64,000 nucleotides of DNA, from NCBI GenBank assembly GCA_017630405.1, contig JAGBVH010000015.1, forward strand, positions 81,026-145,025. The letters are read 5' to 3'. Under the pieces are notes generated by a model that made no database searches, was not told the DNA's origin, and was given only the letters and a program-made list of their open reading frames with translations. This document shows, piece after piece, positions 30,076-42,260 of this stretch. A program made the position numbers and the translations under genes. The DNA comes from Alphaproteobacteria bacterium (GTDB lineage Bacteria; Pseudomonadota; Alphaproteobacteria; Rs-D84). The first letter of the stretch is position 1; each line of letters opens with the position of its first letter.

Positions 30076-30113
30076 GCCGGTGTAGCTCAGCTGGTAGAGC
30101 ATCTCATTCGTAA
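30076..30113 (+). pseudogene. tRNA-Thr(CGU) 5' fragment (acceptor 5' strand, D arm, 5' anticodon stem, anticodon loop)
   Basis: GCCGGTG TA GCTC AGCTGGT AGAGC A TCTCA TTCGTAA. The following sequence AGTCAGTCGG cannot pair with TCTCA. The matching 3' part lies at 36621-36665. Confidence 0.85.
30107..30113 (+). repeat. attL core TTCGTAA (the tRNA anticodon loop)
   Basis: Identical 7-mer at 36621-36627. Confidence 0.7.
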
Positions 30114-30179
30114 AGTCAGTCGGCAAATTTCCTAACCTATTGATTATCGTTGGATTTTAAGTTGTTTTTATTAACCAAA

Positions 30180-30317
30180 GGGACAATGCGGGGACATTTT
30201 TTACAAAAAAATGCAACAATTTGCATATATGTACAACACAATCTGATGTTGCTGCACACACTTAAAAACCGACTAAAATTTATGTGTTTTGCAGTGTAAT
30301 TGTCCCTTGTTTGTCCC
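30180..30317. repeat. left-end cluster of GGGACA / TGTCCC motifs (candidate integrase arm-type sites)
   Basis: GGGACA at 30180-30185 and 30191-30196. TGTCCC at 30301-30306 and 30312-30317. GGGACAAT (30180-30187) and ATTGTCCC (30299-30306) form an inverted pair. Confidence 0.5.
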
Positions 30318-30446
30318 TGTATATAAATCAACCTATCAAAACTAGCATATTATCGGGATTTTTTGGTGGTTAGTCATCTCATTGTATATGTTGAAATCAC
30401 CAAAAAACATCCTATATATTAACCAAATACAAAAGGATTATCCAAG

Positions 30447-31496
30447 ATGGCAACAATAGAAAAGCGCAAGAGTGGAGATGGTTTTGTTTATCGTGCACGT
30501 GTGCGTGTAAAGGGTGCTGAGCCCAGAACAGCGACATTCCCAAATAAGACACTTGCCAAGGCCTGGGCACAGAAGATAGAAGTCGAAATCAAAGAAGGGC
30601 AGTATATGCCCAGCATTCAATCACAAAAACGCACACTGGGCGAAATAATAAGCATTTACAAAGAAAGACATAATCCACTATCAATCACAACATCTGGACA
30701 GCTGGATGTATGGAACGAACAAATGGGCGCATGCAGTTTGAATATGATAACGCCAGACCGTATCTATAACACACTAAAAACGATAGAATCTATAACAACA
30801 CACAATGGACAACCAAAGTCCGCCAGCACATTAAACAGATATTTGGCGGTATTAAGTTCTGCATTAACTTTTGCAGTTAAAGAGTTGGGGTGGATGCGCG
30901 AAAATCCAGCCTTTAAAGTATCACGACGTAACGAGCCAAAGGGACGCGTCAGATTCTTGTCGGATGACGAACGCAACAGATTATTGACCGAGATACAAAA
31001 AGCACCAAACCCATTTTTATACCCAGCGGTTATATTGGCGATTTCAACAGGGGCAAGACGTGGCGAGATATTAAACCTAAAATGGGCAGATGTTGACTTA
31101 CATCGTGGCTGGGCAACGCTGCAAGACACCAAAAATGGCGACAGACGTGGTATTGCGTTGCGTGGTCTGGCATTAGACCTGATGCGCCAACTGTGGGCAA
31201 AGAGATTATCTAACATCTGGGTATTTCCAAACGAAACAAACTCTGGACCATTTAATATCAGATACAGCTGGAACAAAGCGGTTCGTGATGCAAATCTGAT
31301 AGATTTTAGATTTCACGACCTGCGACATACGTGTGCCAGCTATTTAATTATGAACGGTGCATCCCTGGGCGAAATTGCGGACGTTCTGGGACACAAAACA
31401 TTGCAGATGGTACAACGATATGCTCATATATCAGACAGCCACAAGGGTGGTGTTATTGAACGCATGAACGATAAAGTTTTCGGAGAATCAAAATGA
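30447..31496 (+). CDS. int: tyrosine-type site-specific integrase
   Basis: Catalytic signature ARRGEILNLKWADVD (R), FHDLRHTCAS (H-x-x-R), LGHKTLQMVQRYAH (H...Y). N-terminal SAM-like domain. Confidence 0.92.
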   Translation: MATIEKRKSGDGFVYRARVRVKGAEPRTATFPNKTLAKAWAQKIEVEIKEGQYMPSIQSQKRTLGEIISIYKERHNPLSITTSGQLDVWNEQMGACSLNMITPDRIYNTLKTIESITTHNGQPKSASTLNRYLAVLSSALTFAVKELGWMRENPAFKVSRRNEPKGRVRFLSDDERNRLLTEIQKAPNPFLYPAVILAISTGARRGEILNLKWADVDLHRGWATLQDTKNGDRRGIALRGLALDLMRQLWAKRLSNIWVFPNETNSGPFNIRYSWNKAVRDANLIDFRFHDLRHTCASYLIMNGASLGEIADVLGHKTLQMVQRYAHISDSHKGGVIERMNDKVFGESK

Positions 31497-32161
31497 CACA
31501 ACAATTACCTTTTGCCGATATTTTTCCACACTTGCATCCAATGCAAAAATTCACACAGTCCAACTATCCAATACTAGCTGATATTTTATTGGAATACGCA
31601 CAAGATTTGGCACACTATCGTGAAAACTATCTAGATGCCGACAGAATTACTAACGCACTGGATTGGATAAAACAACATGGCGATTTAGACCATAAAACAA
31701 TTAAATGCATCATCAAGCATTTTTGCATTCTTGACTTTAAATCAGATGTAAAAATTCAGACCCATAACAAACAATGGATTGTATGGTTATTCGTTATTGG
31801 TGCTTTCATCCTGATAAATCAAGCAATAGAAAATGACGACATCAATACCGTTAAAAGTGATATTCAAACATGCTTAAAAAACGCACATGACTATAAAAGA
31901 TTGTGGGGCGAAAGAAAAGGTCGTTATAAAGGCGCAAGCAAGACAAACGCCAAGAAAGCTGAAATAAAAAAAACAGTGCTAAAAATAACACGAGAAACAA
32001 ACAATGCAAACCCCGCCAAATCCGATGATGAAAAACTAATCATCATAAAAAACAAATTTAAAAAAACATCCCCCAACAGGGATTTCCCTTACAAAGATTC
32101 TAGTTTTACTAGAAACGATGACGCAAACATGTTTGCCCAGGCTGCAAAGCACAAGCCATAA
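31493..32161 (+). CDS. hypothetical protein (222 aa) with one central hydrophobic helix and Lys-rich C-terminus
   Basis: ATGA overlap with int. WIVWLFVIGAFILINQAI helix. No family recognised. Confidence 0.45.
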   Translation: MTQQLPFADIFPHLHPMQKFTQSNYPILADILLEYAQDLAHYRENYLDADRITNALDWIKQHGDLDHKTIKCIIKHFCILDFKSDVKIQTHNKQWIVWLFVIGAFILINQAIENDDINTVKSDIQTCLKNAHDYKRLWGERKGRYKGASKTNAKKAEIKKTVLKITRETNNANPAKSDDEKLIIIKNKFKKTSPNRDFPYKDSSFTRNDDANMFAQAAKHKP

Positions 32162-32266
32162 AGCCATCACGCTAGCGTTATGGGCAACCGCCTTGATAGG
32201 CGGTATTTTTGCATATATATTTGCCATGAATCCGGATTCGAACAATATCAAAATAAGGAGAAAAAT

Positions 32267-32497
32267 ATGGCAGAAATTGTGCCCAACTTTAAAACAATTC
32301 GGCAATTTGCTGAATCTTATCCTGCATTTACGCAGGGCTCGTTGCGTGATTTGGTGTTTTATGCGGACTATAACGGATTAAATCAATTTGATGCAATCCG
32401 TCGTGTCGGTGCAAAGATACTAATAAACGTTGATAATTTCTTTCGGTGGGTTGATACAAACCCTGCAAGCAAAGGAGGGTTAAATGCAAGAATTTGA
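32267..32497 (+). CDS. excisionase/AlpA-like helix-turn-helix DNA-binding protein (76 aa)
   Basis: Strong SD AAGGAG 7 nt upstream. KTIRQFAE...LRDLV....IRRVGAKILINVDNFFRWV matches the ..GR(K/R)(I/W)LI......W pattern of excisionase-family HTH proteins. The track start at 32180 is judged too early. Confidence 0.5.
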   Translation: MAEIVPNFKTIRQFAESYPAFTQGSLRDLVFYADYNGLNQFDAIRRVGAKILINVDNFFRWVDTNPASKGGLNARI

Positions 32498-33548
32498 CCC
32501 ACAATACGAAAGTGATTATCTGGACAACATCACAGGCGATGATGATATGGACAACACCGTTCAAAAACCGAACATCTTTTCTGTTGGCGATTTATTGGAC
32601 ATGGATTTACCAGAAATCAAATGGCTGCTGTATCCATTTATTCCACAAAAGGGTGTTTGTATGATTTCCGCACCACGCGGTGTCGGGAAATCGTTCTTGG
32701 CGATGACAATGGCTATTTCAATCGCATCATCTATTGACTTTCTGGGTTTCAAAACGGAACAACAATACAAAGTCCTTTATATAGATGGCGAAATGAACGG
32801 CAAGATGCTGCAAGAACGTTTTTCTAAGCTGATTGACGGCATGGAAAAAGATGGCGCAACTGTTAATCGTGAAAATCTAAAAATATTCGGATGCGATTTT
32901 CAGGGTCGTTCATCTATGCCAGATATGTCAAAGCCAGCGCACTGGCGTATCATAGAAAACGCTATCAACAGCATTGGCGGTGTTGACCTTATCATTCTTG
33001 ATAATGTGTTTACCCTGTACGGTTGCCAGGATGAAAATGCAGCATCCAGCTGGCAGGCATTTAACCGATGGTCTGTCAGCCAGCGCATACAAAATCGTTC
33101 TGTCTTGTGGATACACCATACGGGCAAGGATACAGAAAAGGGCGGACGTGGTTCGTCAGCGATTGAAACGCTGATGGATTCGTCCATACTGCTAAAAAGG
33201 CCTGCTGGATATAACCAACAAGATGGCGCAGCGGTTGTTGTAGAATACACAAAAAGCCGCAGCGTTGCTGGCGATGCGGTTGCAAAATTTGCAATCAAAT
33301 TGTGTGGCACAGATAATATACTTTATTGGACAGTCGCAAAAACAGACGAGCAGTCCGAATTGGACGACTTGTTGGATTTTGTCGATAACAAAGGGATGGA
33401 CGTGTCGGAAATCTCAAAAGAAACAGGTATGTCCAAATCTGCACTTTATCGAAAATTCCAGGCAGCTGGAATAAAGGATGTATCCGCACGCGCAAAGCTC
33501 GCCAAACAAAAACAAGCTGAAGACACAAAATCTTTAATTGATATTTAA
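32484..33548 (+). CDS. RepA-like RecA-fold ATPase (AAA_25-type) with C-terminal HTH
   Basis: Walker A ISAPRGVGKSFLAMTMAISIA, Walker B LIILDNVF, WIHHTGKDTEKGGRGSSA sensor region, and C-terminal MDVSEISKETGMSKSALYRKF. Confidence 0.65.
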   Translation: MQEFDPQYESDYLDNITGDDDMDNTVQKPNIFSVGDLLDMDLPEIKWLLYPFIPQKGVCMISAPRGVGKSFLAMTMAISIASSIDFLGFKTEQQYKVLYIDGEMNGKMLQERFSKLIDGMEKDGATVNRENLKIFGCDFQGRSSMPDMSKPAHWRIIENAINSIGGVDLIILDNVFTLYGCQDENAASSWQAFNRWSVSQRIQNRSVLWIHHTGKDTEKGGRGSSAIETLMDSSILLKRPAGYNQQDGAAVVVEYTKSRSVAGDAVAKFAIKLCGTDNILYWTVAKTDEQSELDDLLDFVDNKGMDVSEISKETGMSKSALYRKFQAAGIKDVSARAKLAKQKQAEDTKSLIDI

Positions 33549-33635
33549 TAGCAAGAAAAATCCCATTTTCCCACCCTATTAAGGTACGGGAAAATGGGAA
33601 TTGTGTTTTTGTCCGTTTTTTGTGGATAGTTTTAA

Positions 33636-33896
33636 TCAAATATACTTAGGTTTGCTCTGACGTGGTTCTGTCCGGTATAATTCTTCTGCAATTCTATAAC
33701 TTTCTTTTACTACATAGTTTAATGCTTCTTTTTCTGTTGTGAACCTTCCCACTTCACCACCAGCAACAATAACGACATATTCTATCCCATTAGGTATAAC
33801 AATGTACATTTTTGATACTTCTTTAGCCTTATTATACAGCCAACGTTCTCGTTTCGCTGTATTCACAATCCCCCTAGCCATATTTATCAACCCCAT
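33636..33896 (-). CDS. hypothetical small protein (86 aa)
   Basis: ORF in the minus-strand cargo block. No motif recognised, and the start is uncertain (internal MYIVIPNG possible). Confidence 0.3.
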   Translation of the reverse strand: MGLINMARGIVNTAKRERWLYNKAKEVSKMYIVIPNGIEYVVIVAGGEVGRFTTEKEALNYVVKESYRIAEELYRTEPRQSKPKYI

Positions 33897-33931
33897 ATTA
33901 TTCCTCCTTATTTACAGTATAAACATTTTAG

Positions 33932-34135
33932 TTACCACTCTTCTATTAACATATAAATCCAGCATAAAGCTAGCCAAGCTACAATGGACCACACTCCACT
34001 TCGAAACAATATTTTTATTACTTTACCAACAACCTGGGATTCTTTAACTGTTGTCCCGGCGTTCTTAAAACCACGGCCAATTTTATAAAAAAATCTATCA
34101 ATTGCGTTCTCTGGAATATGTTCTTTTTTCATCAT
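33932..34135 (-). CDS. hypothetical small membrane protein (67 aa)
   Basis: C-terminal TM helix VWSIVAWLALCWIYMLI. Starts 3 nt after the stop of the upstream gene. Confidence 0.35.
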   Translation of the reverse strand: MMKKEHIPENAIDRFFYKIGRGFKNAGTTVKESQVVGKVIKILFRSGVWSIVAWLALCWIYMLIEEW

Positions 34136-34138
34136 TCA

Positions 34139-34912
34139 CTACCTTGTTTTAGATGCCAGAATCATACAAAAAACAAACAACGCTATATAAATCATAGAAA
34201 ATACAGGTGCGTCAAATATTGCAACCAAAACACTAACTATGCCGCCGCATATAACAATATGCTTACCGGTTTCTCTATCGTGTTTACGTGCAATAGATGC
34301 AGGTATAAAAAACAATAACATTCCACCTAGTATGCGACCTAAAATTATCGCCGATAGTTTTGTGTCTTTTTCCGTTATATCCGTATACGAAACATGGGTT
34401 GTTTCACGAAGTTTTTGTTCCGCTTCTTCTGATAGTATGGGTGAAGCAATGTCTGAAACAATTTTACCCGGGACATTTATGGAAGAACGAACTATCCCTT
34501 GCGCCATAGACTCTTTTTGTTTTGAGCCAAGCGTTTTATATCCAGCCCAATCCATATCCTTAACACCATCAACATTATTTACAAACAAAAGCATTGCTTT
34601 TTGCATCTTATTCTCGTGCGTGTTTTCTATTGCTATCGGTTTTACTGGGCTATACTTTACTTTTAAATATTTGTGCGTTCTGTCGTCTGGCAGGTCTGCA
34701 TACAGCTTTCGACCCGGACTTACGATACCGCCAGTATAAGGCATGCCATCATCAGGATTGTCTGTTATTACAACACCACGTTTTTCATTCATTGGGATTT
34801 CTGCCCATCTGCCGTCTTCATACACAACCCTACGCTCCAGTGAGATAGCGGGTGTACATAACGAACCAATTAACAAACACACAAAAAGCATATTGTGTAT
34901 AATCTTATTCAT
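34139..34912 (-). CDS. hypothetical exported protein with C-terminal multi-TM anchor (257 aa)
   Basis: Start at MNKIIHNMLFVCLLIGSLCTPAIS (signal peptide), preceded by a GGAG SD. The C-terminal third has about 3 TM helices. The track ORF extends to 34978 across a terminator hairpin. Confidence 0.45.
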   Translation of the reverse strand: MNKIIHNMLFVCLLIGSLCTPAISLERRVVYEDGRWAEIPMNEKRGVVITDNPDDGMPYTGGIVSPGRKLYADLPDDRTHKYLKVKYSPVKPIAIENTHENKMQKAMLLFVNNVDGVKDMDWAGYKTLGSKQKESMAQGIVRSSINVPGKIVSDIASPILSEEAEQKLRETTHVSYTDITEKDTKLSAIILGRILGGMLLFFIPASIARKHDRETGKHIVICGGIVSVLVAIFDAPVFSMIYIALFVFCMILASKTR

Positions 34913-34929
34913 TTTTGCTCCATTTATAT

Positions 34930-34959
34930 AAAAACAACCGCCATGGGAATTATGGCGGT
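34930..34959 (-). terminator. intrinsic terminator abutting the SD of the 34139..34912 gene
   Basis: 8-bp stem ACCGCCAT/ATGGCGGT (34937-34944 / 34952-34959). The minus strand reads hairpin, then TGTTTTTAT, then AAATGGAGCAAAAATG. Confidence 0.55.
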
Positions 34960-35365
34960 CGGGTGCTTTCAAAATCATAACATGAATGACCCTGTTGCTT
35001 TCGGATAAATCCTATTATATAACAACAGACACCCGGCCAATAAGGTCAGGCAATAACGGTGCGATGCACCATAATGGAATCACGATGCAAACGCACCGCA
35101 TGTTATGGGGTTTGAAAGCCCCGAATCCAATTCCCATCGGATTCATATCTAATTATATCAGGAAAATATGCAAATGTAAAATTTTGATAACCATACTATG
35201 CACCACCCTAAAATTTTTGATGGGGGACCTAGGGGTATCAAATTATAAAGAACAACAAACAATCCCCATGCTAACGCACAGAGATTGTTTCAATGACGAC
35301 TATTAAAATGGTCTGACTATATTTGCCTACACAGCATGCTATCTGCTAAAAAATTAACAATCGTT

Positions 35366-35722
35366 TTAATTTTTATAAAAATACTGCAACGATATTTTCC
35401 AAAGTGCGAACACTTCTGCAAGAGACCCTAAAATAAAACTCACTTGACCAGCAACAGGGAACTCAAGACAACCTGCACCAATTAAAACAAAAACAATACC
35501 TGTAAATACCAGCCACACTATGGATAAAACAACCAAAACCCATGATATTTTATTTCTTATTTTTCTGTTTTCGTCTTGGATGCGATATTCAAGTCCACGC
35601 TTGTACGAATCAAATTCTTCTTTAGAAAATTTCTGCTGATAATCTTTTGGGTCTTTACGAATCCCCTTTAAACCTTTATCTAACAAAGACCCTAATTCTT
35701 CAGAATAATTTTTGATACCCAT
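35366..35722 (-). CDS. small 2-TM protein (118 aa), candidate toxin/effector partner of the Panacea-domain gene
   Basis: Soluble charged N-terminal half, basic stretch RKIRNK, then two TM helices (ISWVLVVLSIVWLVFTGIVFVLIGAG and VSFILGSLAEVFALW). The start codon directly follows the stop of 35723..36223. Confidence 0.45.
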   Translation of the reverse strand: MGIKNYSEELGSLLDKGLKGIRKDPKDYQQKFSKEEFDSYKRGLEYRIQDENRKIRNKISWVLVVLSIVWLVFTGIVFVLIGAGCLEFPVAGQVSFILGSLAEVFALWKISLQYFYKN

Positions 35723-36223
35723 CTATTTACTCCAAAGGTCTTCAAACTCTTTCTTCATATCTTCTTCAGATATAACACAGCTGTTTCTGTTGTTAGAATA
35801 TACTTTTTTCCACGCAGAACCATCTCTATGAGTAAGCCCAACAAGCTCCCAATCTTTAATGTTTTTTGTCATATTGGCAACAGCATCTATGAAAGCACAC
35901 TCATCTTCGCTGCAAGATGTTAAATTTTCACCAAACGCTATCTCAGGAATATAGTCAGAACCAAAAAACTTAAATCTTTGATAAACTTCTGGAACAACAG
36001 GTCCATATTTCCAGGCCTGAATCTCCGCATTGAATAGATGTTTGCCATTTCGAAGTCCCAAAGACAAAACCTGTGCAATATAAAGAATTTTTTGCAAACG
36101 CAAATTCGTTACTTGCCATTTCTGGCTTTCACAAATCTTTTTTGCAACCTTAAACACATCACACATTTTCGCTGACCTGGGGTTATATTTACCGTTTCTC
36201 TCTTTGAGAGAATTATACCACAA
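35723..36223 (-). CDS. Panacea / DUF4065 (SocA-GepA-like) domain protein
   Basis: LRLQKILYIAQVLSLGLRNGKHLFNAEIQAWKYGPVVPEVYQRFKFFG matches the characteristic KLQKLLYYAQ...F.AW..GPV.PEVY..FK..G core. An alternative start MCDVFK lies at 36166. Confidence 0.7.
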   Translation of the reverse strand: MWYNSLKERNGKYNPRSAKMCDVFKVAKKICESQKWQVTNLRLQKILYIAQVLSLGLRNGKHLFNAEIQAWKYGPVVPEVYQRFKFFGSDYIPEIAFGENLTSCSEDECAFIDAVANMTKNIKDWELVGLTHRDGSAWKKVYSNNRNSCVISEEDMKKEFEDLWSK

Positions 36224-36254
36224 ATGGCAAAAAAAATCAATACAAATGATATGA

Positions 36255-36330
36255 TGGTGCCGGTGATAAGACTTGAACTTACGACCTTTGCATTACGAAT
36301 GCACTGCTCTACCAGCTGAGCTACACCGGC
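36255..36330 (-). tRNA. tRNA-Thr (anticodon CGT), complete, carried inside the element
   Basis: The reverse complement reads GCCGGTG TA GCTC AGCTGGT AGAGC A GTGCA TTCGTAA TGCAA AGGTC GTAAG TTCAAGT CTTAT CACCGGC ACCA. The first 26 nt are identical to the split host gene. Confidence 0.9.
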
Positions 36331-36397
36331 AACATCGGGCAGTATATCCTATCATCAAAACAATTTCAAGCATCCGTTTTAGGATTTTATAAAATAA

Positions 36398-36501
36398 ATT
36401 GTCCCCTGACGGAAACTGACCAAAAACACATGAATAAAGCAGCCATAAACATCCACCAGCAAGCAATCCAGCGCAATCTGGCCAGGGACACTATAGGGAC
36501 A
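36398..36501. repeat. right-end cluster of TGTCCC / GGGACA motifs (candidate arm-type sites)
   Basis: ATTGTCCC at 36398-36405. GGGACA at 36485-36490 and 36496-36501. Confidence 0.45.
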
Positions 36502-36620
36502 AAACGCTGCATAAACTGCAGCGAATTACAATTAGCTACAATCATAAAAAAACAACAAAAACCGCGGTAATCCGCTTGATTTTTGTTGCAGATTGTTGTA
36601 GATTACACATAGTGCTATCC

Positions 36621-36627
36621 TTCGTAA
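36621..36627 (+). repeat. attR core TTCGTAA
   Basis: Direct repeat of 30107-30113. Confidence 0.7.
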
Positions 36628-36665
36628 TGAGGGGGTCGCAGGTTCAAGTCCTGTCACCGGCACCA
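36621..36665 (+). pseudogene. tRNA-Thr(CGU) 3' fragment (anticodon loop, 3' anticodon stem, variable loop, T arm, acceptor 3' strand, CCA)
   Basis: TTCGTAA TGAGG GGGTC GCAGG TTCAAGT CCTGT CACCGGC ACCA. TGAGG pairs with TCTCA, and CACCGGC with GCCGGTG, of the 30076-30113 fragment. Confidence 0.85.
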
Positions 36666-38146: not shown

Positions 38147-38977
38147 TTATTTTGTTTTTGCTTTTTGTAATTCGGCTGATATTTCGTTTGCAAGCTGTTT
38201 GATACGCGCTGCTTCTTGTTCGGCATATTGTGCATCTACTGCAATCTCGATAGCTGCCTGAACATATATCATCAGCTCAACAGGAATCGAGCCAATCCTT
38301 TTACAAAGAGGCCCGGCCTGTGTTTGAGTCTTTTTATAGATTGCGCCATCTTCGGTTATATGATAATTGCCGACAGTTGTTGTTATAAACGTTGTATCTT
38401 CTATAGACAAAGTCTGATATTTTTTAATTTCTACAACTTTTATCAATTCCAACAAATCGCCTAATCCTGCTTTGATGAATTTGTCTTTTATTTTTGGATT
38501 GGCGTTGATTATATCTTCGCGTGCTGCTTTGAATGCTGCTTTGAATTCAGCATCGCGTATTTTTTGTCTCTCGATTTCTTCCTGGCGCGCGATTTCGTCT
38601 TTAGCTGCCTTTACCATATCTTCATAGGCTTTGATGCGTGCTTTACCATTTTTCTGCGCACTGTCTGTCATCTCATTAAATATCACACCAGGTAAACTAT
38701 ATGCGGCGTGAAAATCGTCTTGGATAATCTTCCAATTACGTTTTCGTGCAGAACGTTTTTCTGAGGCATAATCCTCGCGCCAACAAGGGTTGTTGGTACG
38801 ATATTCCTGGTCAGGTTTTTTTGGGAAATGACCTTTTTTAATTAAGTCCGCGACGGATACTGTGCAACCAACTGCCGGTGCAATTGCAAATGTTGTCACA
38901 GCCACAATAACGGCACCACTAGTATACAAAACTTTTTCCGCGCCGTTTTTCCATTTAATCTTTGTTATTTCTTCCAT
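38147..38977 (-). CDS. hypothetical protein with N-terminal hydrophobic segment and central coiled-coil (276 aa)
   Basis: VLYTSGAVIVAVTTFAIAPAVG hydrophobic segment. Charged helical stretch KAAKDEIARQEEIERQKIRDAEFKAAFKAARED. No family recognised. Confidence 0.5.
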   Translation of the reverse strand: MEEITKIKWKNGAEKVLYTSGAVIVAVTTFAIAPAVGCTVSVADLIKKGHFPKKPDQEYRTNNPCWREDYASEKRSARKRNWKIIQDDFHAAYSLPGVIFNEMTDSAQKNGKARIKAYEDMVKAAKDEIARQEEIERQKIRDAEFKAAFKAAREDIINANPKIKDKFIKAGLGDLLELIKVVEIKKYQTLSIEDTTFITTTVGNYHITEDGAIYKKTQTQAGPLCKRIGSIPVELMIYVQAAIEIAVDAQYAEQEAARIKQLANEISAELQKAKTK

Positions 38978-39132
38978 TTTCTTAATTCCTTTAGTTATAG
39001 GGTTATCTTACTCACACTATGTAATATAATACATAAAAACGATTTGTCAAGTATTTGTACAAAAAATACATATAAAATATTTATGTCTTAAAAACTTGAT
39101 TTTTTGGGGTTTTGATTGTAATCTTTGTTTTG

Positions 39133-39165
39133 ATGAAAAAACAAGCAATAATTATTATTAAATAA
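39133..39165 (+). promoter_or_regulatory. candidate ileS leader peptide ORF MKKQAIIIIK
   Basis: ATG AAA AAA CAA GCA ATA ATT ATT ATT AAA TAA. Four consecutive Ile codons in 10 codons, upstream of a terminator and ileS. Confidence 0.45.
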
Positions 39166-39191
39166 AGGCTACACGCGCTTTGGCGGTGGCT

Positions 39192-39213
39192 GGGGCGCAT
39201 GGGCGCCTTTTTT
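39192..39213 (+). terminator. intrinsic terminator / candidate attenuator immediately upstream of ileS
   Basis: GGCGC-ATGG-GCGCC (39194-39207) followed by T6 (39208-39213). It ends 11 nt before the ileS SD GGAG. Confidence 0.55.
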
Positions 39214-39236
39214 AATACAAAAACGGAGTGTTTAAT

Positions 39237-42200
39237 ATGGCATACCCAAAAACAGACCCACGTGCAGATTTTTCTGCTTTGGAACAGGAAGTATTAAAAT
39301 ACTGGCGTGAAAATAACACATTTCAAAATACTTTGGATAAAACCGAGTCTGGTGCACCATTTAGTTTTTATGATGGTCCTCCGTTTGCCAATGGTCTGCC
39401 ACACTGGGGGCACTTGGGCGTATCAGTGGTCAAAGATATGGTTGCGCGATTCCAGACAATGTCTGGCCGTCATGTTGTGCGTGAACTTGGCTGGGATTGC
39501 CATGGGTTGCCTGCGGAAAATTCCGTTGAAATAAAGCAGGGTCGCAGCGCCAAGGATATTGTTGCCAATGATGGCATCGTTGCATTCTGCGATATGTGTC
39601 GCACTGATGTTATGACATACACCAACGAATGGGGTGTTTTTATCGAGCGTATGGGGCGCTGGGTAAAAATCGGTGATGAATACGGCTATAAAACAATGAA
39701 CCGCAACTATATGGAATCTATGTTGTGGACATTGAAAAGCCTGTATGAAAAGGGCTTGTTATACAAAGATTACAGTGTAAATCCATATGACTGGGTAAAT
39801 GGTACTGTTGTATCAAATTCCGAAGCATCTCAGGATTATCGTGAAATTGTTGATGATGCCGTAACTGTTTGGTTTGAATTGGAAAATGGCGATCGTGCGA
39901 TTGCTTGGACAACAACACCTTGGACATTACCAGCGAACAGCGCATTGGCGGTTAATCCGAACATGGAATATCTGCGTATGCAGGATTCTGATGGCGCGGT
40001 ATATATAATCGCGGCCAGCCGTCTGAAAGCATATGAAAAGCAGTTCGCCAACGCCACAGAAATTGGTCGTGTAAAGGGTTCTGAATTGGCGGGGTTACAT
40101 TATGCGCCTTTGTTTCCATATTACGCAGGCCAGTCTGATTTACTGTTCCAGATAATCCCAGCGGACTATGTATCGGACGGTGACGGTACAGGTATCGTTC
40201 ATATCGCACCAGCATACGGTGCCGAAGACTTCTGGGCGGCAAAAAACATCGATCCAAAATTCCCTGTATTGTTAAATGTTGATACATATGGAAACTTTGA
40301 TGAAACAGTTGTTGATTTTGCAGGTGAAAATATCTTTGCTGCCACACCAAAAATCATGGATTGGTTAAAACAGAACGGCAAACTGGTTAAAAAAGAACAG
40401 TACAAGCACAGTTATCCTTTTGGCGACCGTTCAAAGGAAAAATTAATCCAGCGCGCCACAGATTCTTGGTATATCGATGTTCCAAAGATTAAGGATAAAT
40501 TATTGGCCAACAATGCCAAAGTAAATTGGACATCCGCTGGTGAACGCTTCCGTTCTTGGATTGAAAATGCGCGTCCATGGTCAATATCCAGAAATCGTTT
40601 CTGGGGTATGCCACTGCCTATCTGGGAACGCGATGGTGAATTCAAGGTATTTGGCTCAATCGCAGAATTGGAAGAATTCTTTGGTGTCGAAGTAAAAGAT
40701 TTGCATCGTCCAACATTGGATAAATTGACACGCGATGGCTGGACTCGTATCAGCGATGTTTTGGATTGCTGGGTTGAATCCGGTTCTATGCCTTGGGCGT
40801 CATTACATTACCCATTTGAAAATGTGGACAAGTTCAATGCGACTTTCCCAGCAGATTATATTATCGAAGGTCAGGACCAAACACGTGGTTGGTTCTATGC
40901 GTTGATGGTTTTGGCGACAGCATTGTTTGACAAGCCGGCGTTTATGACTGTGTCAGCAAATGGTATGGTTGTGGACGAAAACAAAAAGAAGTTCTCGAAA
41001 TCATTAAAGAACTTTGTAAATCCATCTGACCAGATTGAACAATACGGTGCTGATGCGGTCCGTCTGTTTATCCTTGGGTCAAACTTTATGAAGGCTGAAC
41101 CAGTGCCTGTTGATAAAGAAGGTAAAGTATTTGCAGAATCGACCAAGACAATCCAGACACCATTGTGGAACGCATATCACTTCTTTACACTGTATGCGAA
41201 CGCCGGTAATGTCACTGCACAAGAAATTACTGATTCTGACAATGCGCTGGATAAATACATTATGGCGGAATTAAATGTTCTGACCGATGCGGTAAAAGAC
41301 GCGTTAACAGAATACAAACCAGATGCCGCAATCAAGGAATTTGTTCGCTTCTTGGACATCTTGAACAATTGGTACATCCGTCGTGGTCGCGCACGCTTCT
41401 GGGACGAAGAACAAACAGCGTTCGACACATTGTACACAGTGCTTGTATCATTGTGTCGCCTGTTGGCACCATTTGCGCCATTTGTATCTGAATACATCTA
41501 TCGCGCGTTGACTGGTGGTGAATCTGTTCATTTGACAGACTTCCCAACAGCCTCTGCACCAGATATGCAAATCGTATCTGATATGCGTCGTGTTCAGTCC
41601 GTTGTATCCACCGGAAAACAGTTGCGCGAAAAGTATGGCCTGCGTAATCGTCTGCCGCTGCGCGGAATGATTGTTGCGGGTGCGGATTTGTCCAGATACA
41701 CAGACATTATCCAAGAAGAACTTAATGTAAAGTCTGTTAAGTTTGAATCGAACACAGACAATGTTGCGGACAGTTTTGTTTACCTGATTACACCAAAGAT
41801 TGGTGCGCGCCTTGGTGGTGCATTAAAAGACATTATCCCATCTGTAAAGCGTGGCGATTATGAATTGGTGGGCGATAAATTGCTGGCCGCGGGTCACGAA
41901 CTGAACGCAGATGAATTTGAAAATCGCTTAACTGTGCGTGATGGCGTATCGGGGGCTGCGTTGCCTGATAATACAGCGGTTGTTGTTCTGGATACAGATG
42001 TTGATGCTTCATTGGTTGCCGAAGGTTTGGCAAACGATGCCTTGCGCTTTATTCAGGATACACGAAAAGCGGTAAACCTTGATGTTTCGGACAGAATCGT
42101 TTTGACATATGCGGCGGACCCTGCATTGGCAAATGCAATCGAACAGCATAAAAAGCGTATCATGCGCGAAGCACTGATTACCCAGATGGTCACAGGCGAC

Positions 42201-42260
42201 GGCGAATATACAACCGAATTCGAAGGCTATAACTTGGCAATATCTATTAACAAAGCATAA
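39237..42260 (+). CDS. ileS: isoleucine--tRNA ligase
   Basis: PFANGLPHWGHL (HIGH-type), editing CP1 domain, KFSKSLKN (KMSKS-type). ATG at 39237 lies 8 nt after GGAG; the track start at 39228 is a GTG inside the SD. Confidence 0.95.
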   Translation: MAYPKTDPRADFSALEQEVLKYWRENNTFQNTLDKTESGAPFSFYDGPPFANGLPHWGHLGVSVVKDMVARFQTMSGRHVVRELGWDCHGLPAENSVEIKQGRSAKDIVANDGIVAFCDMCRTDVMTYTNEWGVFIERMGRWVKIGDEYGYKTMNRNYMESMLWTLKSLYEKGLLYKDYSVNPYDWVNGTVVSNSEASQDYREIVDDAVTVWFELENGDRAIAWTTTPWTLPANSALAVNPNMEYLRMQDSDGAVYIIAASRLKAYEKQFANATEIGRVKGSELAGLHYAPLFPYYAGQSDLLFQIIPADYVSDGDGTGIVHIAPAYGAEDFWAAKNIDPKFPVLLNVDTYGNFDETVVDFAGENIFAATPKIMDWLKQNGKLVKKEQYKHSYPFGDRSKEKLIQRATDSWYIDVPKIKDKLLANNAKVNWTSAGERFRSWIENARPWSISRNRFWGMPLPIWERDGEFKVFGSIAELEEFFGVEVKDLHRPTLDKLTRDGWTRISDVLDCWVESGSMPWASLHYPFENVDKFNATFPADYIIEGQDQTRGWFYALMVLATALFDKPAFMTVSANGMVVDENKKKFSKSLKNFVNPSDQIEQYGADAVRLFILGSNFMKAEPVPVDKEGKVFAESTKTIQTPLWNAYHFFTLYANAGNVTAQEITDSDNALDKYIMAELNVLTDAVKDALTEYKPDAAIKEFVRFLDILNNWYIRRGRARFWDEEQTAFDTLYTVLVSLCRLLAPFAPFVSEYIYRALTGGESVHLTDFPTASAPDMQIVSDMRRVQSVVSTGKQLREKYGLRNRLPLRGMIVAGADLSRYTDIIQEELNVKSVKFESNTDNVADSFVYLITPKIGARLGGALKDIIPSVKRGDYELVGDKLLAAGHELNADEFENRLTVRDGVSGAALPDNTAVVVLDTDVDASLVAEGLANDALRFIQDTRKAVNLDVSDRIVLTYAADPALANAIEQHKKRIMREALITQMVTGDGEYTTEFEGYNLAISINKA

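What the first reader, a model, noticed from the sequence alone, without database searches (positions are those of the whole stretch)
39133..39213. Ile-rich leader peptide (MKKQAIIIIK) plus terminator directly upstream of ileS: candidate ribosome-mediated attenuator of an aminoacyl-tRNA synthetase
- 39133-39165 reads ATG AAA AAA CAA GCA ATA ATT ATT ATT AAA TAA, giving four consecutive Ile codons in a 10-codon ORF.
- 28 nt downstream lies GGCGC-ATGG-GCGCC followed by T6 (39194-39213).
- The T-run ends 11 nt before the ileS SD and 23 nt before its ATG. No promoter fits in between, so ileS mRNA must read through this terminator.
- GCGCT (39175-39179) can pair with the left terminator arm GGCGC (39194-39198) as an alternative structure.
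- GGCTAC (39167-39172) can pair with GTGGCT (39186-39191) right after the leader stop codon.
- This is the logic of the trp, ilv and pheST (pheM) leaders, applied here to ileS with its cognate amino acid.
- I see no clear SD for the leader ORF, and the alternative helices are short.
Basis: partly seen in the sequence, partly recalled or inferred. Interest (0 to 1): 0.6.

Follow-up and report, generated by a model that had tools for sequence, protein, structure and literature searches.

The report
Isoleucine leader-peptide attenuator controlling ileS
A ten-codon mini-gene with four isoleucine codons, followed by three competing RNA hairpins that end in a transcription stop signal, sits in front of the isoleucyl-tRNA synthetase gene and recurs in about 100 related gut bacteria; it is very probably a ribosome-operated switch that raises enzyme synthesis when charged isoleucine tRNA runs short.

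Summary

- **Where it is.** The window comes from a Candidatus Enterousia genome (gut Alphaproteobacteria, order Rs-D84, about 1 Mb). The published description says these bacteria lack amino-acid biosynthesis.
- **Conservation of the leader ORF.** 100 of 101 same-genus ileS loci carry an ORF of the type M-x4-I-I-I-I-(K/R)-stop.
- **Conservation of the RNA structure.** The ORF is followed by an 8-11 nt spacer, a 10-bp antiterminator and a 6-7-bp terminator with a U-run. Both helices are more than 95% paired, with compensatory and three-way changes.
- **New here: a third hairpin.** It acts as an anti-antiterminator (39167-39191), which gives the classical three-hairpin layout.
- **New here: a conserved promoter.** Its -10 box ends 7-8 nt before the leader ATG. 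The leader ORF is probably leaderless, which explains the missing SD.
- **New here: constrained codon choice.** The synonymous codon choice ATA-ATT-ATT-ATT is strongly constrained.
- **Known families.** Nothing in Rfam matches. I found no published description beyond an "ileS leader CDS" named in a Caulobacter ribosome-profiling study.
- **Status.** The mechanism is textbook attenuation applied to a new gene and lineage. The direction of regulation and the transcription start are inferred, not shown.

The parts
39096..39101 (+). -35 hexamer TTGATT (preceded by C39095) of the leader/ileS promoter
   Evidence: In 68 distinct relatives anchored on the -10, CTTG is 91-99% conserved with a 17-nt spacer. 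Sequence.
39119..39124 (+). -10 hexamer TAATCT, directly preceded by TG (39117-39118)
   Evidence: TAnnnT is present in 72 of 80 loci without an upstream tRNA, and TG precedes it in 55. The -10 ends 7-8 nt before the start codon in 55 of 68 distinct promoters. The generic scanner did not flag it because it has only 3 of 6 matches to TATAAT.
39131..39133 (+). Predicted transcription start, giving a leaderless or nearly leaderless leader ORF
   Evidence: Inferred from the conserved 7-8 nt distance between the -10 box and the ATG. Not measured.
39133..39165 (+). Leader ORF, MKKQAIIIIK*
   Evidence: In 100 of 101 same-genus loci an in-frame ATG (a few GTG) lies 4-6 codons, usually 5, before the Ile run. 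The run is followed by one K/R/G codon and a stop. Length changes are in whole codons, giving 3-5 Ile.
39148..39159 (+). Regulatory Ile codons ATA ATT ATT ATT
   Evidence: Each codon is identical in 82-88 of 91 distinct elements. The variants are ATC, ATA and GTA/GTG. Conserved Ile positions inside IleRS of the same genomes have a major-codon share of only 0.36-0.63.
39166..39174 (+). 9-nt spacer between the stop codon and the antiterminator; also the 5' arm of hairpin P1
   Evidence: Spacer length is 8-11 nt, and 9 nt in 61 of 91. Its sequence varies (66 spacer/loop combinations) but pairing is kept.
39167..39191 (+). Hairpin P1 (anti-antiterminator, possibly a pause hairpin): 39167-72 paired with 39186-91, and 39174-76 paired with 39183-85
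   Evidence: -12.9 kcal/mol, z -3.5. It is predicted in all 66 distinct combinations (-7.0 to -16.2, mean -11.3). On the model-fitted alignment 81.5% of cells are paired and 4 pairs show changes on both sides.
39175..39198 (+). Antiterminator hairpin: GCGCUUUGGC, loop GGUG, GCUGGGGCGC
   Evidence: -14.3 kcal/mol, z -3.9. 95.6% of cells are paired across 91 sequences, and 3 pairs show compensatory changes.
39192..39213 (+). Intrinsic terminator: stem 39192-98 paired with 39203-09, loop AUGG, U-run 39208-13
   Evidence: Found by the terminator scan. -10.9 kcal/mol. 97.4% of cells are paired, with 9 compensatory cells. It is the RNAalifold consensus structure.
39214..39217 (+). Conserved AAUA after the U-run, complementary with the U-run to UAUUAAAUAA of the leader (39155-39165)
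   Evidence: These pairs are complementary in 69-90 of 91 sequences, but slid controls reach 47-68%. The role is unexplained.
39225..39228 (+). Shine-Dalgarno sequence (GGAG) of ileS
   Evidence: GGAG or AGG is conserved before the ileS ATG in the alignment.
39237..42260 (+). ileS, isoleucyl-tRNA synthetase (1007 aa; the long, eukaryote-like type, an assignment I make from background knowledge)
   Evidence: Translation. TIGR00392 match at E=1.9e-226 and single copy in the genome. Only 14 of 121 sampled genomes of the class hold a close relative (E<=1e-120; 12 outside the genus).

Best explanation
**What it is**

This is a classical ribosome-mediated transcription attenuator that couples ileS transcription to the supply of charged tRNA-Ile.

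**How it most likely works**
1. Transcription starts at or next to the leader AUG. In some relatives it arrives from an upstream tRNA-Thr gene.
2. A ribosome translates the 10-codon leader while RNA polymerase transcribes the next 50 nt.
3. With no ribosome nearby, hairpin P1 (39167-39191) forms first and holds the antiterminator's 5' arm. The terminator (39192-39213) then forms and transcription stops.
4. If Ile-tRNA is plentiful, the ribosome runs to the stop codon. Its leading edge then lies about 12-15 nt past the first base of UAA. It covers the spacer and the first 0-3 bases of the GCGC base of the antiterminator.
5. That prevents P1, weakens the antiterminator and exposes a toehold for the terminator. 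The result is again termination.
6. If Ile-tRNA is scarce, the ribosome waits on the last Ile codon(s). It covers only the outer 5' arm of P1 and leaves the antiterminator arm free.
7. The 10-bp antiterminator then forms before the terminator's 3' arm is made. Polymerase reads on into ileS.

**Shown and inferred**
- Shown: all sequence parts, their conservation, their mutual exclusivity and their energies.
- Inferred: translation of the ORF, the transcription start, the ribosome footprint geometry, pausing and the direction of the response.
For: **The leader is a real ORF**
- The ORF, its start codon, frame, 3-5 Ile codons, one K/R codon and stop are conserved in 100 of 101 loci of the genus. 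The first 80 IleRS residues are 60-100% identical across these loci.
- Changes in the Ile codons are synonymous or Ile to Val. Indels are whole codons.

**The helices are maintained**
- The terminator is 97.4% paired and the antiterminator 95.6% paired. Both carry compensatory changes.
- There is three-way covariation of regions 2/3/4: GCAC/GUGC/GCAC in L050, L072 and L067, and ACGC/GCGU/ACGC in L022.
- P1 is present in all 66 distinct spacer/loop variants.

**The energies are balanced like a switch**
- The antiterminator averages -13.5 kcal/mol and the terminator -12.2.
- Masking 2-3 nt at the antiterminator base makes the terminator win in 83-91 of 91 sequences.
- In the window, P1 plus the terminator gives -24.0 against -24.4 for the antiterminator state.
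- The distance from the stop codon to the antiterminator is fixed at 8-11 nt.

**ileS depends on read-through**
- No promoter-like site lies after the T-run.
- In 21 relatives the only upstream signal is a tRNA gene 15-25 nt from the ATG.
- An RNA-derived contig spans the terminator into ileS in a relative.

**Other support**
- A conserved promoter explains the absence of an SD.
- The controlled gene is the cognate synthetase.
- The organism is described as lacking amino-acid biosynthesis (PMC12306168).
- The element occurs once in the genome.
Against: **No experimental data**
- I found no usable RNA-seq, Term-seq or ribosome profiling for this organism.

**The thermodynamics are not decisive**
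- With global folding, the terminator state is slightly favoured at every assumed ribosome position. The switch must therefore be kinetic.

**The geometry is on a knife edge**
- A ribosome on the stop codon reaches only about the first bases of the antiterminator.
- A ribosome stalled on Ile codons 1-2 would not touch P1.

**Exceptions and unexplained constraints**
- Two divergent loci (L094, L106) have the stop codon 3-6 nt earlier.
- The strong conservation of synonymous sites shows a constraint beyond "any Ile codon". It could be an RNA-level function.
- Covariation counts are small because the sequences are very similar.
Confidence: 0.72

Rival explanations
1. The parts are the same but the logic is inverted. 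A ribosome that completes the leader and sits on the stop codon melts P1 while leaving the antiterminator arm free, so read-through requires successful translation. A ribosome stalled early on Ile codons leaves P1 intact, and transcription terminates. ileS would then follow translation capacity or growth rate, and would fall during isoleucine starvation.
For: - P1's 5' arm lies wholly within reach of a ribosome on the stop codon. It is barely within reach of one on the Ile codons.
- With a 9-nt spacer and a footprint edge at +12, the antiterminator arm would be completely free. The unmasked antiterminator beats the terminator in 70 of 91 sequences.
Against: - It is physiologically opposite to every characterised synthetase control (T-box, pheST), by established knowledge.
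- It gives no reason for a cognate Ile run.
- Masking only 1-3 nt of the antiterminator base already favours the terminator in 66-91 of 91 sequences. Placing four G-C pairs exactly at the ribosome's edge fits occlusion better.
Confidence: 0.1
2. The switch works at the RNA level only. The conserved AUAAUUAUUAUUAAAUAA acts as RNA, pairing with the U-run plus AAUA or binding a protein or tRNA. It is not read as codons, and the ORF is incidental.
For: - Synonymous sites of the four Ile codons are 90-97% conserved, while those inside ileS are scrambled.
- The leader's 3' end is complementary to the U-run plus AAUA in most sequences. One ATC variant (L056) has a matching G.
Against: - An in-frame start codon at a fixed distance, a stop codon and whole-codon indels are kept in 100 loci.
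- The changes seen are synonymous or Ile to Val.
- The promoter is positioned to start at the AUG.
- The A/U complementarity is only modestly above the slid controls.
- No Rfam family matches, including T-box.
Confidence: 0.08
3. The 81-nt transcript is an independent small RNA, or encodes a functional 10-residue hydrophobic peptide. The terminator simply ends it, and ileS is expressed by constitutive leak-through.
For: - It is a compact unit of promoter, ORF and terminator.
- The peptide C-terminus IIII(K/R) is conserved.
Against: - Residues 2-5 of the peptide vary freely.
- The conserved antiterminator and anti-antiterminator, with compensatory changes, have no role in this reading.
- The element is always glued to ileS and occurs once per genome.
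- ileS has no other promoter.
Confidence: 0.05

Closest known systems
pheST attenuator of Escherichia coli (pheM leader peptide)
   Same: A short leader ORF rich in the cognate codon, followed by a terminator/antiterminator switch, controls transcription of the cognate aminoacyl-tRNA synthetase. This is established knowledge and is cited as the proteobacterial example in PMC1262725.
   Different: - A different amino acid and synthetase.
- No sequence relation.
- The leader here has 10 codons and no SD, and probably starts at the 5' end of the RNA.
- The lineage is a reduced-genome alphaproteobacterium.
trp, his, thr, leu and ilv (ilvL, ivbL) leader-peptide attenuators of Enterobacteria
   Same: The three-hairpin layout of anti-antiterminator, antiterminator and terminator, with regulatory codons near the end of the leader and a stop codon close to the next helix. 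ilvL and ivbL also use Ile codons (established knowledge).
   Different: - Those control biosynthetic operons, which this organism reportedly lacks (PMC12306168).
- The Rfam leader families do not match. The best hit is leu/phe leader RF01743 at 16 bits against a gathering score of 70.
- Here the antiterminator is built from the 3' end of region 1 plus both halves of region 2. It is not a simple 2:3 pairing.
"ileS leader CDS" CCNA_03934 of Caulobacter crescentus (ribosome profiling, PMC4117421)
   Same: A small translated ORF upstream of ileS in an alphaproteobacterium.
   Different: - Its sequence and mechanism are not given in the text or the held supplements.
- In my sample, 17 of 112 alphaproteobacterial families have a different uORF before ileS. 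It ends in R-I-(I/T)-x-P-(A/V), carries a CGAATTAY motif, has a hairpin over the stop codon and has no U-run.
- The Enterousia leader lacks that motif.
Leaderless polycysteine short ORFs acting as cysteine-responsive attenuators in mycobacteria (bioRxiv 10.1101/834739)
   Same: A leaderless short ORF with a run of one codon controls the genes downstream (title and abstract).
   Different: - A different phylum, amino acid and target genes.
- I did not read that paper's mechanism.
- Here there is a clear intrinsic terminator with an antiterminator.
T-box leaders of ileS in Firmicutes and Actinobacteria
   Same: The same regulated gene and the same signal, the charging level of tRNA-Ile (PMC1262725).
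   Different: A T-box binds the tRNA directly and needs no translation. No T-box match is found here.
Classical attenuators predicted before trpS and leuS in Streptomyces (PMC1262725)
   Same: A leader-peptide attenuator in front of a synthetase gene outside the gamma-proteobacteria.
   Different: Other synthetases and another phylum. These are predictions only.

Membership tests
Classical leader-peptide transcription attenuator | Short ORF upstream of the regulated gene with a cluster of codons for the sensed amino acid | tested here: met
   MKKQAIIIIK* at 39133-39165. There are 3-5 consecutive Ile codons in 100 of 101 genus loci.
Classical leader-peptide transcription attenuator | Intrinsic terminator between the leader ORF and the regulated gene, with no promoter after it | tested here: met
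   Terminator at 39192-39213. It is 97.4% paired across 91 sequences. No promoter-like site lies between 39213 and 39237.
Classical leader-peptide transcription attenuator | Antiterminator helix mutually exclusive with the terminator | tested here: met
   39175-84 paired with 39189-98 shares 39192-98 with the terminator. It is 95.6% paired, with compensatory and three-way changes.
Classical leader-peptide transcription attenuator | Anti-antiterminator (1:2) helix placed so that a translating ribosome can mask it | tested here: met
   P1 at 39167-39191 starts 2 nt after the stop codon. It is -12.9 kcal/mol and is present in all 66 variants. The column count is weaker, at 81.5% paired.
Classical leader-peptide transcription attenuator | The leader ORF is translated (it has initiation signals) | tested here: inconclusive
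   There is no SD. A conserved promoter places the start at or near the AUG, implying leaderless initiation. No ribosome profiling or 5'-end data were available.
Classical leader-peptide transcription attenuator | Read-through rises when the cognate charged tRNA is limiting | not testable with these tools
   This needs reporter assays, an in-vitro coupled assay or Term-seq. The only RNA evidence is a contig spanning the terminator in a relative.
T-box riboswitch | Stem I with specifier loop, and the T-box sequence in an antiterminator bulge (Rfam model) | tested here: not met
   No T-box match even at E<=10 in 38900-39350.
Rfam amino-acid leader families (for example leu/phe leader RF01743) | Score at or above the family's gathering threshold | tested here: not met
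   The best match is RF01743 at 16.4 bits against 70, with E=4. No gathering-level match in L036, a same-genus locus.
Alphaproteobacterial ileS uORF of the R-I-(I/T)-x-P type (seen here in 17 of 112 families) | uORF ending in R-I-(I/T)-x-P-(A/V) with the nucleotide motif CGAATTAY...CCCGG and a hairpin over the stop codon | tested here: not met
   The Enterousia leader ends in IIII-K-stop, lacks the motif and has a U-run terminator.

The most novel reading that the evidence does not exclude
The leader may be more than a generic Ile sensor. It would be a leaderless, two-isoacceptor sensor.

- The invariant codon order is ATA, then ATT-ATT-ATT. ATA is read by the lysidine-modified tRNA-Ile2 and ATT by tRNA-Ile1. 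This order would report the charging of both tRNA-Ile species.
- Through ATA it would also report the state of the TilS modification.
- The same AU-only codons double as the strand that pairs with the U-run plus AAUA. That pairing would lock read-through transcripts in the antiterminated fold.
- Under this reading, the codon-level conservation is the functional core of the device. The device has been kept as the only attenuator in a reduced genome of about 1 Mb.
Probability: 0.15. Interest if true: 0.65.

Novelty: new member of a known kind. Interest (0 to 1): 0.5.

Why it matters
**Why it would matter if true**
- Leader-peptide attenuation of a synthetase gene is textbook for pheST, but I found almost no documentation of it for ileS. 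For ileS, the known RNA control is the T-box of Gram-positive bacteria.
- Here it is present in about 100 species-level genomes of an uncultured gut lineage with a reduced genome. The lineage is reported to import its amino acids. The cell would therefore have kept one dedicated sensor of isoleucine charging while losing most regulation.
- The element is small (81 nt), sharply defined and balanced in energy. That makes it a convenient model for ribosome-position-dependent switching on a leaderless RNA.

**Wider context**
- Different Ile-linked uORFs lie before ileS in other Alphaproteobacteria, in 17 of 112 sampled families. Translation-based control of ileS may therefore be widespread and under-described.

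**Limits**
- The mechanism class is well known.
- The same family was already noted elsewhere in this scan.

Tried and rejected
**RNA evidence for this genome**
- The runs that hold the window are DNA or of unknown kind. Contigs of run X9 are fragmentary and include the divergent gene, so they say nothing about the transcription start or termination.
- For a relative (L096), one sheep gut metatranscriptome contig spans the spacer through to ileS. Its 5' end, 1 nt after the leader stop, cannot be taken as an RNA end.

**Known RNA families**
- Rfam gave nothing, either at E<=10 on the region or at gathering level on related and class-wide loci.

**Other attenuators in the genome**
- A scan for short ORFs with a run of at least 3 identical residues, followed by a terminator and a long ORF, found only the ileS element as convincing.
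- The first version of this scan was swamped by the C-termini of real genes.

**Thermodynamic test of the switch**
- Constrained global folds favour the terminator state slightly at every assumed ribosome position. Equilibrium energies alone therefore do not decide the direction.

**Long outer helix**
- The pairing of the leader's 3' end with the U-run plus AAUA is complementary in most sequences but only modestly above the slid controls. I left it unexplained.

**Counting P1 by columns**
- On the MAFFT alignment the spacer register shifts between subgroups. I used per-sequence folds, a chimera test and a model-fitted alignment instead.

**Literature**
- Lopatovskaya et al. 2010 (PubMed 20198868) is a broad survey of attenuators that includes synthetase operons. 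It is not held, so I cannot exclude that ileS attenuators were predicted there.
- The sequence of the Caulobacter ileS leader is not in the held supplements.

**tRNA-Ile genes**
- ARAGORN lists only three CAU-anticodon tRNAs in this draft and no tRNA-Ile(GAU), presumably because the rRNA operon is missing. I could say nothing about the isoacceptor set.
Full report
**1. Observation**

- ATG at 39133 opens ATG AAA AAA CAA GCA ATA ATT ATT ATT AAA TAA, giving MKKQAIIIIK*, which ends at 39165.
- A hairpin follows: GGGGCGC (39192-98), loop AUGG, GCGCCUU (39203-09). Its T6 run is 39208-13.
- The terminator scan found it as the only terminator-like site in 38800-39400. Shuffles gave 0.5.
- The SD (GGAG, 39225-28) and the ATG at 39237 open a 1007-residue protein.
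- That protein matches the isoleucine-tRNA ligase model TIGR00392 at E=1.9e-226 and is the only such gene in the genome.
- The upstream gene (38147-38977) is divergent. It has its own promoter-like site on the minus strand, TTGACA-16-TATATT at 39050 to 39023.
- No plus-strand promoter-like site lies between the T-run and ileS.

**2. Organism**

- The window is contig 12 of a draft genome of 1.05 Mb with 42% G+C.
- The closest public genomes are MAGs named Candidatus Enterousia or "Alphaproteobacteria bacterium", from ruminant, pig and other guts.
- The published description places the genus in order Rs-D84. It reports genomes of about 1 Mb or less and no pathways for amino-acid biosynthesis (PMC12306168).

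**3. Conservation of the leader ORF**

I collected the region upstream of ileS from 108 loci.

- 100 of 101 same-genus loci carry the element. The first 80 IleRS residues of these loci are 60-100% identical. The 100 loci yield 91 distinct sequences.
- The consensus is ATG AAA CAA ACA ACA ATA ATT ATT ATT AAA TAA (MKQTTIIIIK*).
- An in-frame ATG (GTG in four loci) lies 5 codons before the Ile run, rarely 4 or 6.
- Residues 2-5 vary freely.
- The run has 3, 4 or 5 Ile codons, so its length changes in whole codons.
- Substitutions in the run are ATT to ATC or ATA, or Ile to Val at the first position.
- One Lys, Arg or Gly codon and a stop follow the run.
- The one locus without the element (L093) has a tRNA-Thr gene, a plain terminator and then ileS.
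- Six genomes of other families of the same order lack the element.

This pattern of a fixed frame, start and stop with a free N-terminus is what a translated regulatory ORF should show.

**4. The Ile codons are constrained beyond their meaning**

- Each of the four codons is identical in 82-88 of the 91 distinct elements.
- Eight conserved Ile positions inside IleRS of the same genomes have a major-codon share of only 0.36-0.63.
- Genome-wide usage is ATT 50%, ATC 27% and ATA 23%.
- So the particular codons, or the RNA sequence, are under selection. I cannot say which. Section 9 lists the candidates.

**5. Three hairpins**

*Terminator (T)*
- On the alignment of 91 elements (A1), the terminator's 6 core pairs are standard pairs in 97.4% of cells.
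- Nine cells are changed on both sides (C-G to U-A at two positions). Slid controls give 41-69%.
- RNAalifold returns exactly this helix as the consensus structure.

*Antiterminator (AT)*
- It is GCGCUUUGGC (39175-84), loop GGUG, GCUGGGGCGC (39189-98).
- It is paired in 95.6% of cells, and three pairs show changes on both sides. Slid controls give 24-62%.
- The same column changes in all three strands. L050, L072 and L067 have GCAC / GUGC / GCAC in the AT 5' arm, the shared arm and the terminator 3' arm. L022 has ACGC / GCGU / ACGC.
- This is the signature expected if the shared arm must pair with both partners.

*Anti-antiterminator (P1)*
- I found this third hairpin at 39167-72 paired with 39186-91, plus 39174-76 paired with 39183-85.
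- In the window it is -12.9 kcal/mol (z -3.5). AT is -14.3 (z -3.9) and T is -10.9 (z -2.9).
- The MFE of 39166-39210 is P1 directly abutting T (-24.0). The whole leader 39133-39213 folds into the AT state at -24.4.
- The spacer and loop sequences vary, with 66 distinct combinations. A P1 hairpin of -7.0 to -16.2 kcal/mol (mean -11.3) is predicted in every one.
- There are matched changes. GGCAAC/GUGGCU contains an A.G mismatch, whereas GGUAAC/GUUGCU and GGCAAC/GUUGCC are fully paired.
- Native spacers fold better with their own partner than with foreign ones in 83 of 91 cases.
- A column count on a model-fitted alignment gives 81.5% paired, with four pairs changed on both sides.
- That count is weaker than for T and AT, partly because the register differs between subgroups. 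An alignment fitted to the model also leans towards the model's structure.

**6. Geometry and energies**

- The spacer between the stop codon and the AT 5' arm is 8-11 nt, and 9 nt in 61 of 91.
- By established footprint and toeprint data, a ribosome covers about 12-15 nt beyond the first base of its A-site codon. A ribosome on UAA therefore covers the whole spacer, which includes P1's 5' arm. It just reaches the four G-C pairs at the base of AT.
- Across the 91 elements AT averages -13.5 kcal/mol and T -12.2.
- Removing the first 1, 2 or 3 nt of the AT arm makes T the stronger helix in 66, 83 or 91 of 91.
- The middle of AT is made of U-G pairs, so a terminator arm that finds a toehold should displace it easily.
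- A ribosome waiting with the last Ile codon in its A site is 6 nt further back. It covers only the outer G-G-C of P1 and leaves the AT arm free.
- Equilibrium folding with constraints does not give a clean switch. The T state is favoured by 1.5-9 kcal/mol at every assumed ribosome position.
- The decision must therefore be kinetic, as in the classical systems. The full P1 is stable enough to outlast transcription of the next 20 nt. A truncated P1 is not.

**7. Start of the leader RNA**

- In the 80 loci without an upstream tRNA gene there is a conserved promoter.
- CTTG lies 24-21 nt before the -10 start in 91-99% of 68 distinct sequences. A 17-nt spacer follows, then TG directly before TAnnnT.
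- The -10 ends 7-8 nt before the start codon in 55 of 68.
- In the window these are TTGATT (39096-101) and TAATCT (39119-24), followed by 8 nt and the ATG.
- That places the transcription start at or within about 2 nt of the AUG. This would explain why no SD is present.
- In 21 other loci the 3' end of a tRNA-Thr gene lies 15-25 nt before the leader ATG with no room for a promoter. There the leader and ileS must be co-transcribed with the tRNA.

**8. Mechanism proposed**

| Situation | What the RNA does | Outcome |
|---|---|---|
| No ribosome, or an early stall | P1 forms, so T can form | Stop |
| Ribosome on the stop codon (Ile-tRNA plentiful) | P1 is blocked, the AT base is occluded and T invades | Stop |
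| Ribosome held on the last Ile codon(s) | P1 is weakened, AT forms before the terminator's 3' arm emerges | Read-through into ileS |

- P1 may also serve as the pause hairpin that synchronises polymerase and ribosome, as the 1:2 hairpin does in trp. This is inference only.
- The main rival keeps the parts but inverts the logic: the ribosome on the stop codon frees AT. I give it about 0.1. It contradicts the physiology of all known synthetase controls and gives no reason to place the AT base at the ribosome's edge.
- An RNA-only switch (0.08) is suggested by the synonymous-site constraint, but it is hard to reconcile with the conserved start, frame and stop.
- An independent sRNA or peptide (0.05) leaves AT and P1 without a role.

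**9. Unexplained: codon-level conservation and the outer helix**

- The leader's UAUUAAAUAA is complementary to the U-run plus a conserved AAUA (39214-17) in 69-90 of 91 sequences. In the window's full-length MFE this extends AT into one long hairpin.
- Slid controls reach 47-68%, so much of this is A/U composition.
- One ATC variant (L056) has a matching G.
- Candidate reasons for the fixed ATA-ATT-ATT-ATT:
  - this pairing;
  - sensing of both tRNA-Ile isoacceptors;
  - keeping the 5' end free of structure for leaderless initiation.

**10. RNA evidence**

- I found no usable RNA data for this genome.
- For a rumen relative, a sheep gut metatranscriptome contig (95-99% identical) covers L096:1434-1733. 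That spans from the second base of the spacer through P1, AT, T and the U-run, and 233 nt into ileS.
- This fits ileS mRNA arising by read-through. Coverage is low, contigs have no true ends, and DNA carry-over cannot be excluded.

**11. Comparison with what is known**

- Nothing in Rfam 15 matches. There is no T-box hit, and the best leader family scores 16 bits against a threshold of 70.
- The mechanism is that of pheST (pheM) and the trp, his and ilv leaders.
- Attenuators before trpS and leuS were predicted in Streptomyces. ileS is T-box-controlled in Firmicutes and Actinobacteria (PMC1262725).
[quoted passage not shown] No sequence or mechanism is given (PMC4117421).
- A 2010 survey of attenuators that includes synthetase operons could not be read.
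- Leaderless codon-run attenuators are described for cysteine in mycobacteria (bioRxiv 10.1101/834739).
- A covariance model of the element (R1) finds all 91 genus sequences. It finds nothing in other families of the order. In 100 of the 112 class-wide ileS upstream regions it gives one weak hit, L138 at 29 bits.
- In L138 a different type-2 ileS is preceded by MKYLKINSVIIIKI* and a terminator.
- The element occurs once in this genome, and no other gene has a comparable leader.

**12. Verdict**

- The element is real and strongly conserved. It is almost certainly a leader-peptide attenuator of ileS.
- It is a new member of a well-known kind. Its particular features are a probably leaderless 10-codon leader, alternative coupling to a tRNA-Thr gene, a knife-edge ribosome/antiterminator geometry and fixed codon choice.
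- Earlier notes of this scan reached the same reading for the same family in another genome. That is not independent evidence, but it agrees.
- Interest is moderate.

Noticed in passing
L172, L219, L171, L205, L169, L214, L153 and others (class-wide ileS upstream regions): In 17 of 112 sampled alphaproteobacterial families, ileS is preceded 100-180 nt upstream by a different small ORF. It ends in R-I-(I/T)-x-P-(A/V)-(L/S) and carries a conserved nucleotide motif CGAATTAY...CCCGG, which includes the rare Arg codon CGA followed by AUU. A G+C-rich hairpin straddles the stop codon and there is no U-run. No Rfam match in the seven of these loci scanned (L172, L219, L171, L205, L169, L214, L153).
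   Followed up: partly
L138 (G114) and L117 (G091): Two other families with the long (type-2) IleRS have their own Ile-rich uORFs before ileS. L138 has MKYLKINSVIIIKI* followed by a hairpin and a terminator, and is a weak hit of the Enterousia model at 29 bits. L117 has MSDIRSISIIISIIIP*, whose last codons form the left arm of a terminator-like hairpin.
   Followed up: partly
L093: This is the only same-genus locus without the leader. tRNA-Thr is followed by a plain terminator (AAACGACGGCTTCGTCGTTTTTT) and then ileS, so it looks like a natural loss of the attenuator.
   Followed up: no
21 relatives (for example L043, L070, L084, L088); window 30076-36665 for the split tRNA: In 21 loci the 3' end of tRNA-Thr(CGU) lies 15-25 nt before the leader ATG. 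tRNA, leader and ileS would then form one transcript, and the attenuator's terminator would also end the tRNA transcript.
   Followed up: partly
window 39148-39159: The synonymous codon choice ATA-ATT-ATT-ATT is 90-97% conserved across 91 distinct elements. Conserved Ile codons inside ileS of the same genomes are scrambled, with a major-codon share of 0.36-0.63.
   Followed up: yes
window 39155-39165 with 39208-39217: The end of the leader ORF (UAUUAAAUAA) is complementary to the terminator's U-run plus a conserved AAUA. In the full-length fold this extends the antiterminator into one long hairpin. The role is unknown, and the signal is only modestly above A/U-composition controls.
   Followed up: partly
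window 39023-39050 (minus strand): A near-consensus promoter-like site, TTGACA-16-TATATT, points towards the divergent 276-aa gene (38147-38977). The 259-bp intergenic region therefore appears to hold two back-to-back promoters.
   Followed up: no
G000, many contigs (for example C2:20679-20702, C5:5161-5182, C23:22674-22697): Many intrinsic terminators of this genome share nearly the same stem, AAAATCCCCC-N3-5-GGGGGATTTTTT. This is a stereotyped terminator or repeat family. The ileS attenuator's terminator is not of this type.
   Followed up: no
L094 and L106: In the two most divergent elements the leader's stop codon lies 6 or 3 nt earlier (III-stop and IIII-stop, without the Lys codon), while the hairpins stay in place. 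The ribosome/antiterminator geometry differs there.
   Followed up: no
G000 whole genome: ARAGORN finds three CAU-anticodon tRNAs and no tRNA-Ile(GAU) in this draft. The rRNA operon that usually carries that gene is probably missing from the assembly.
   Followed up: no
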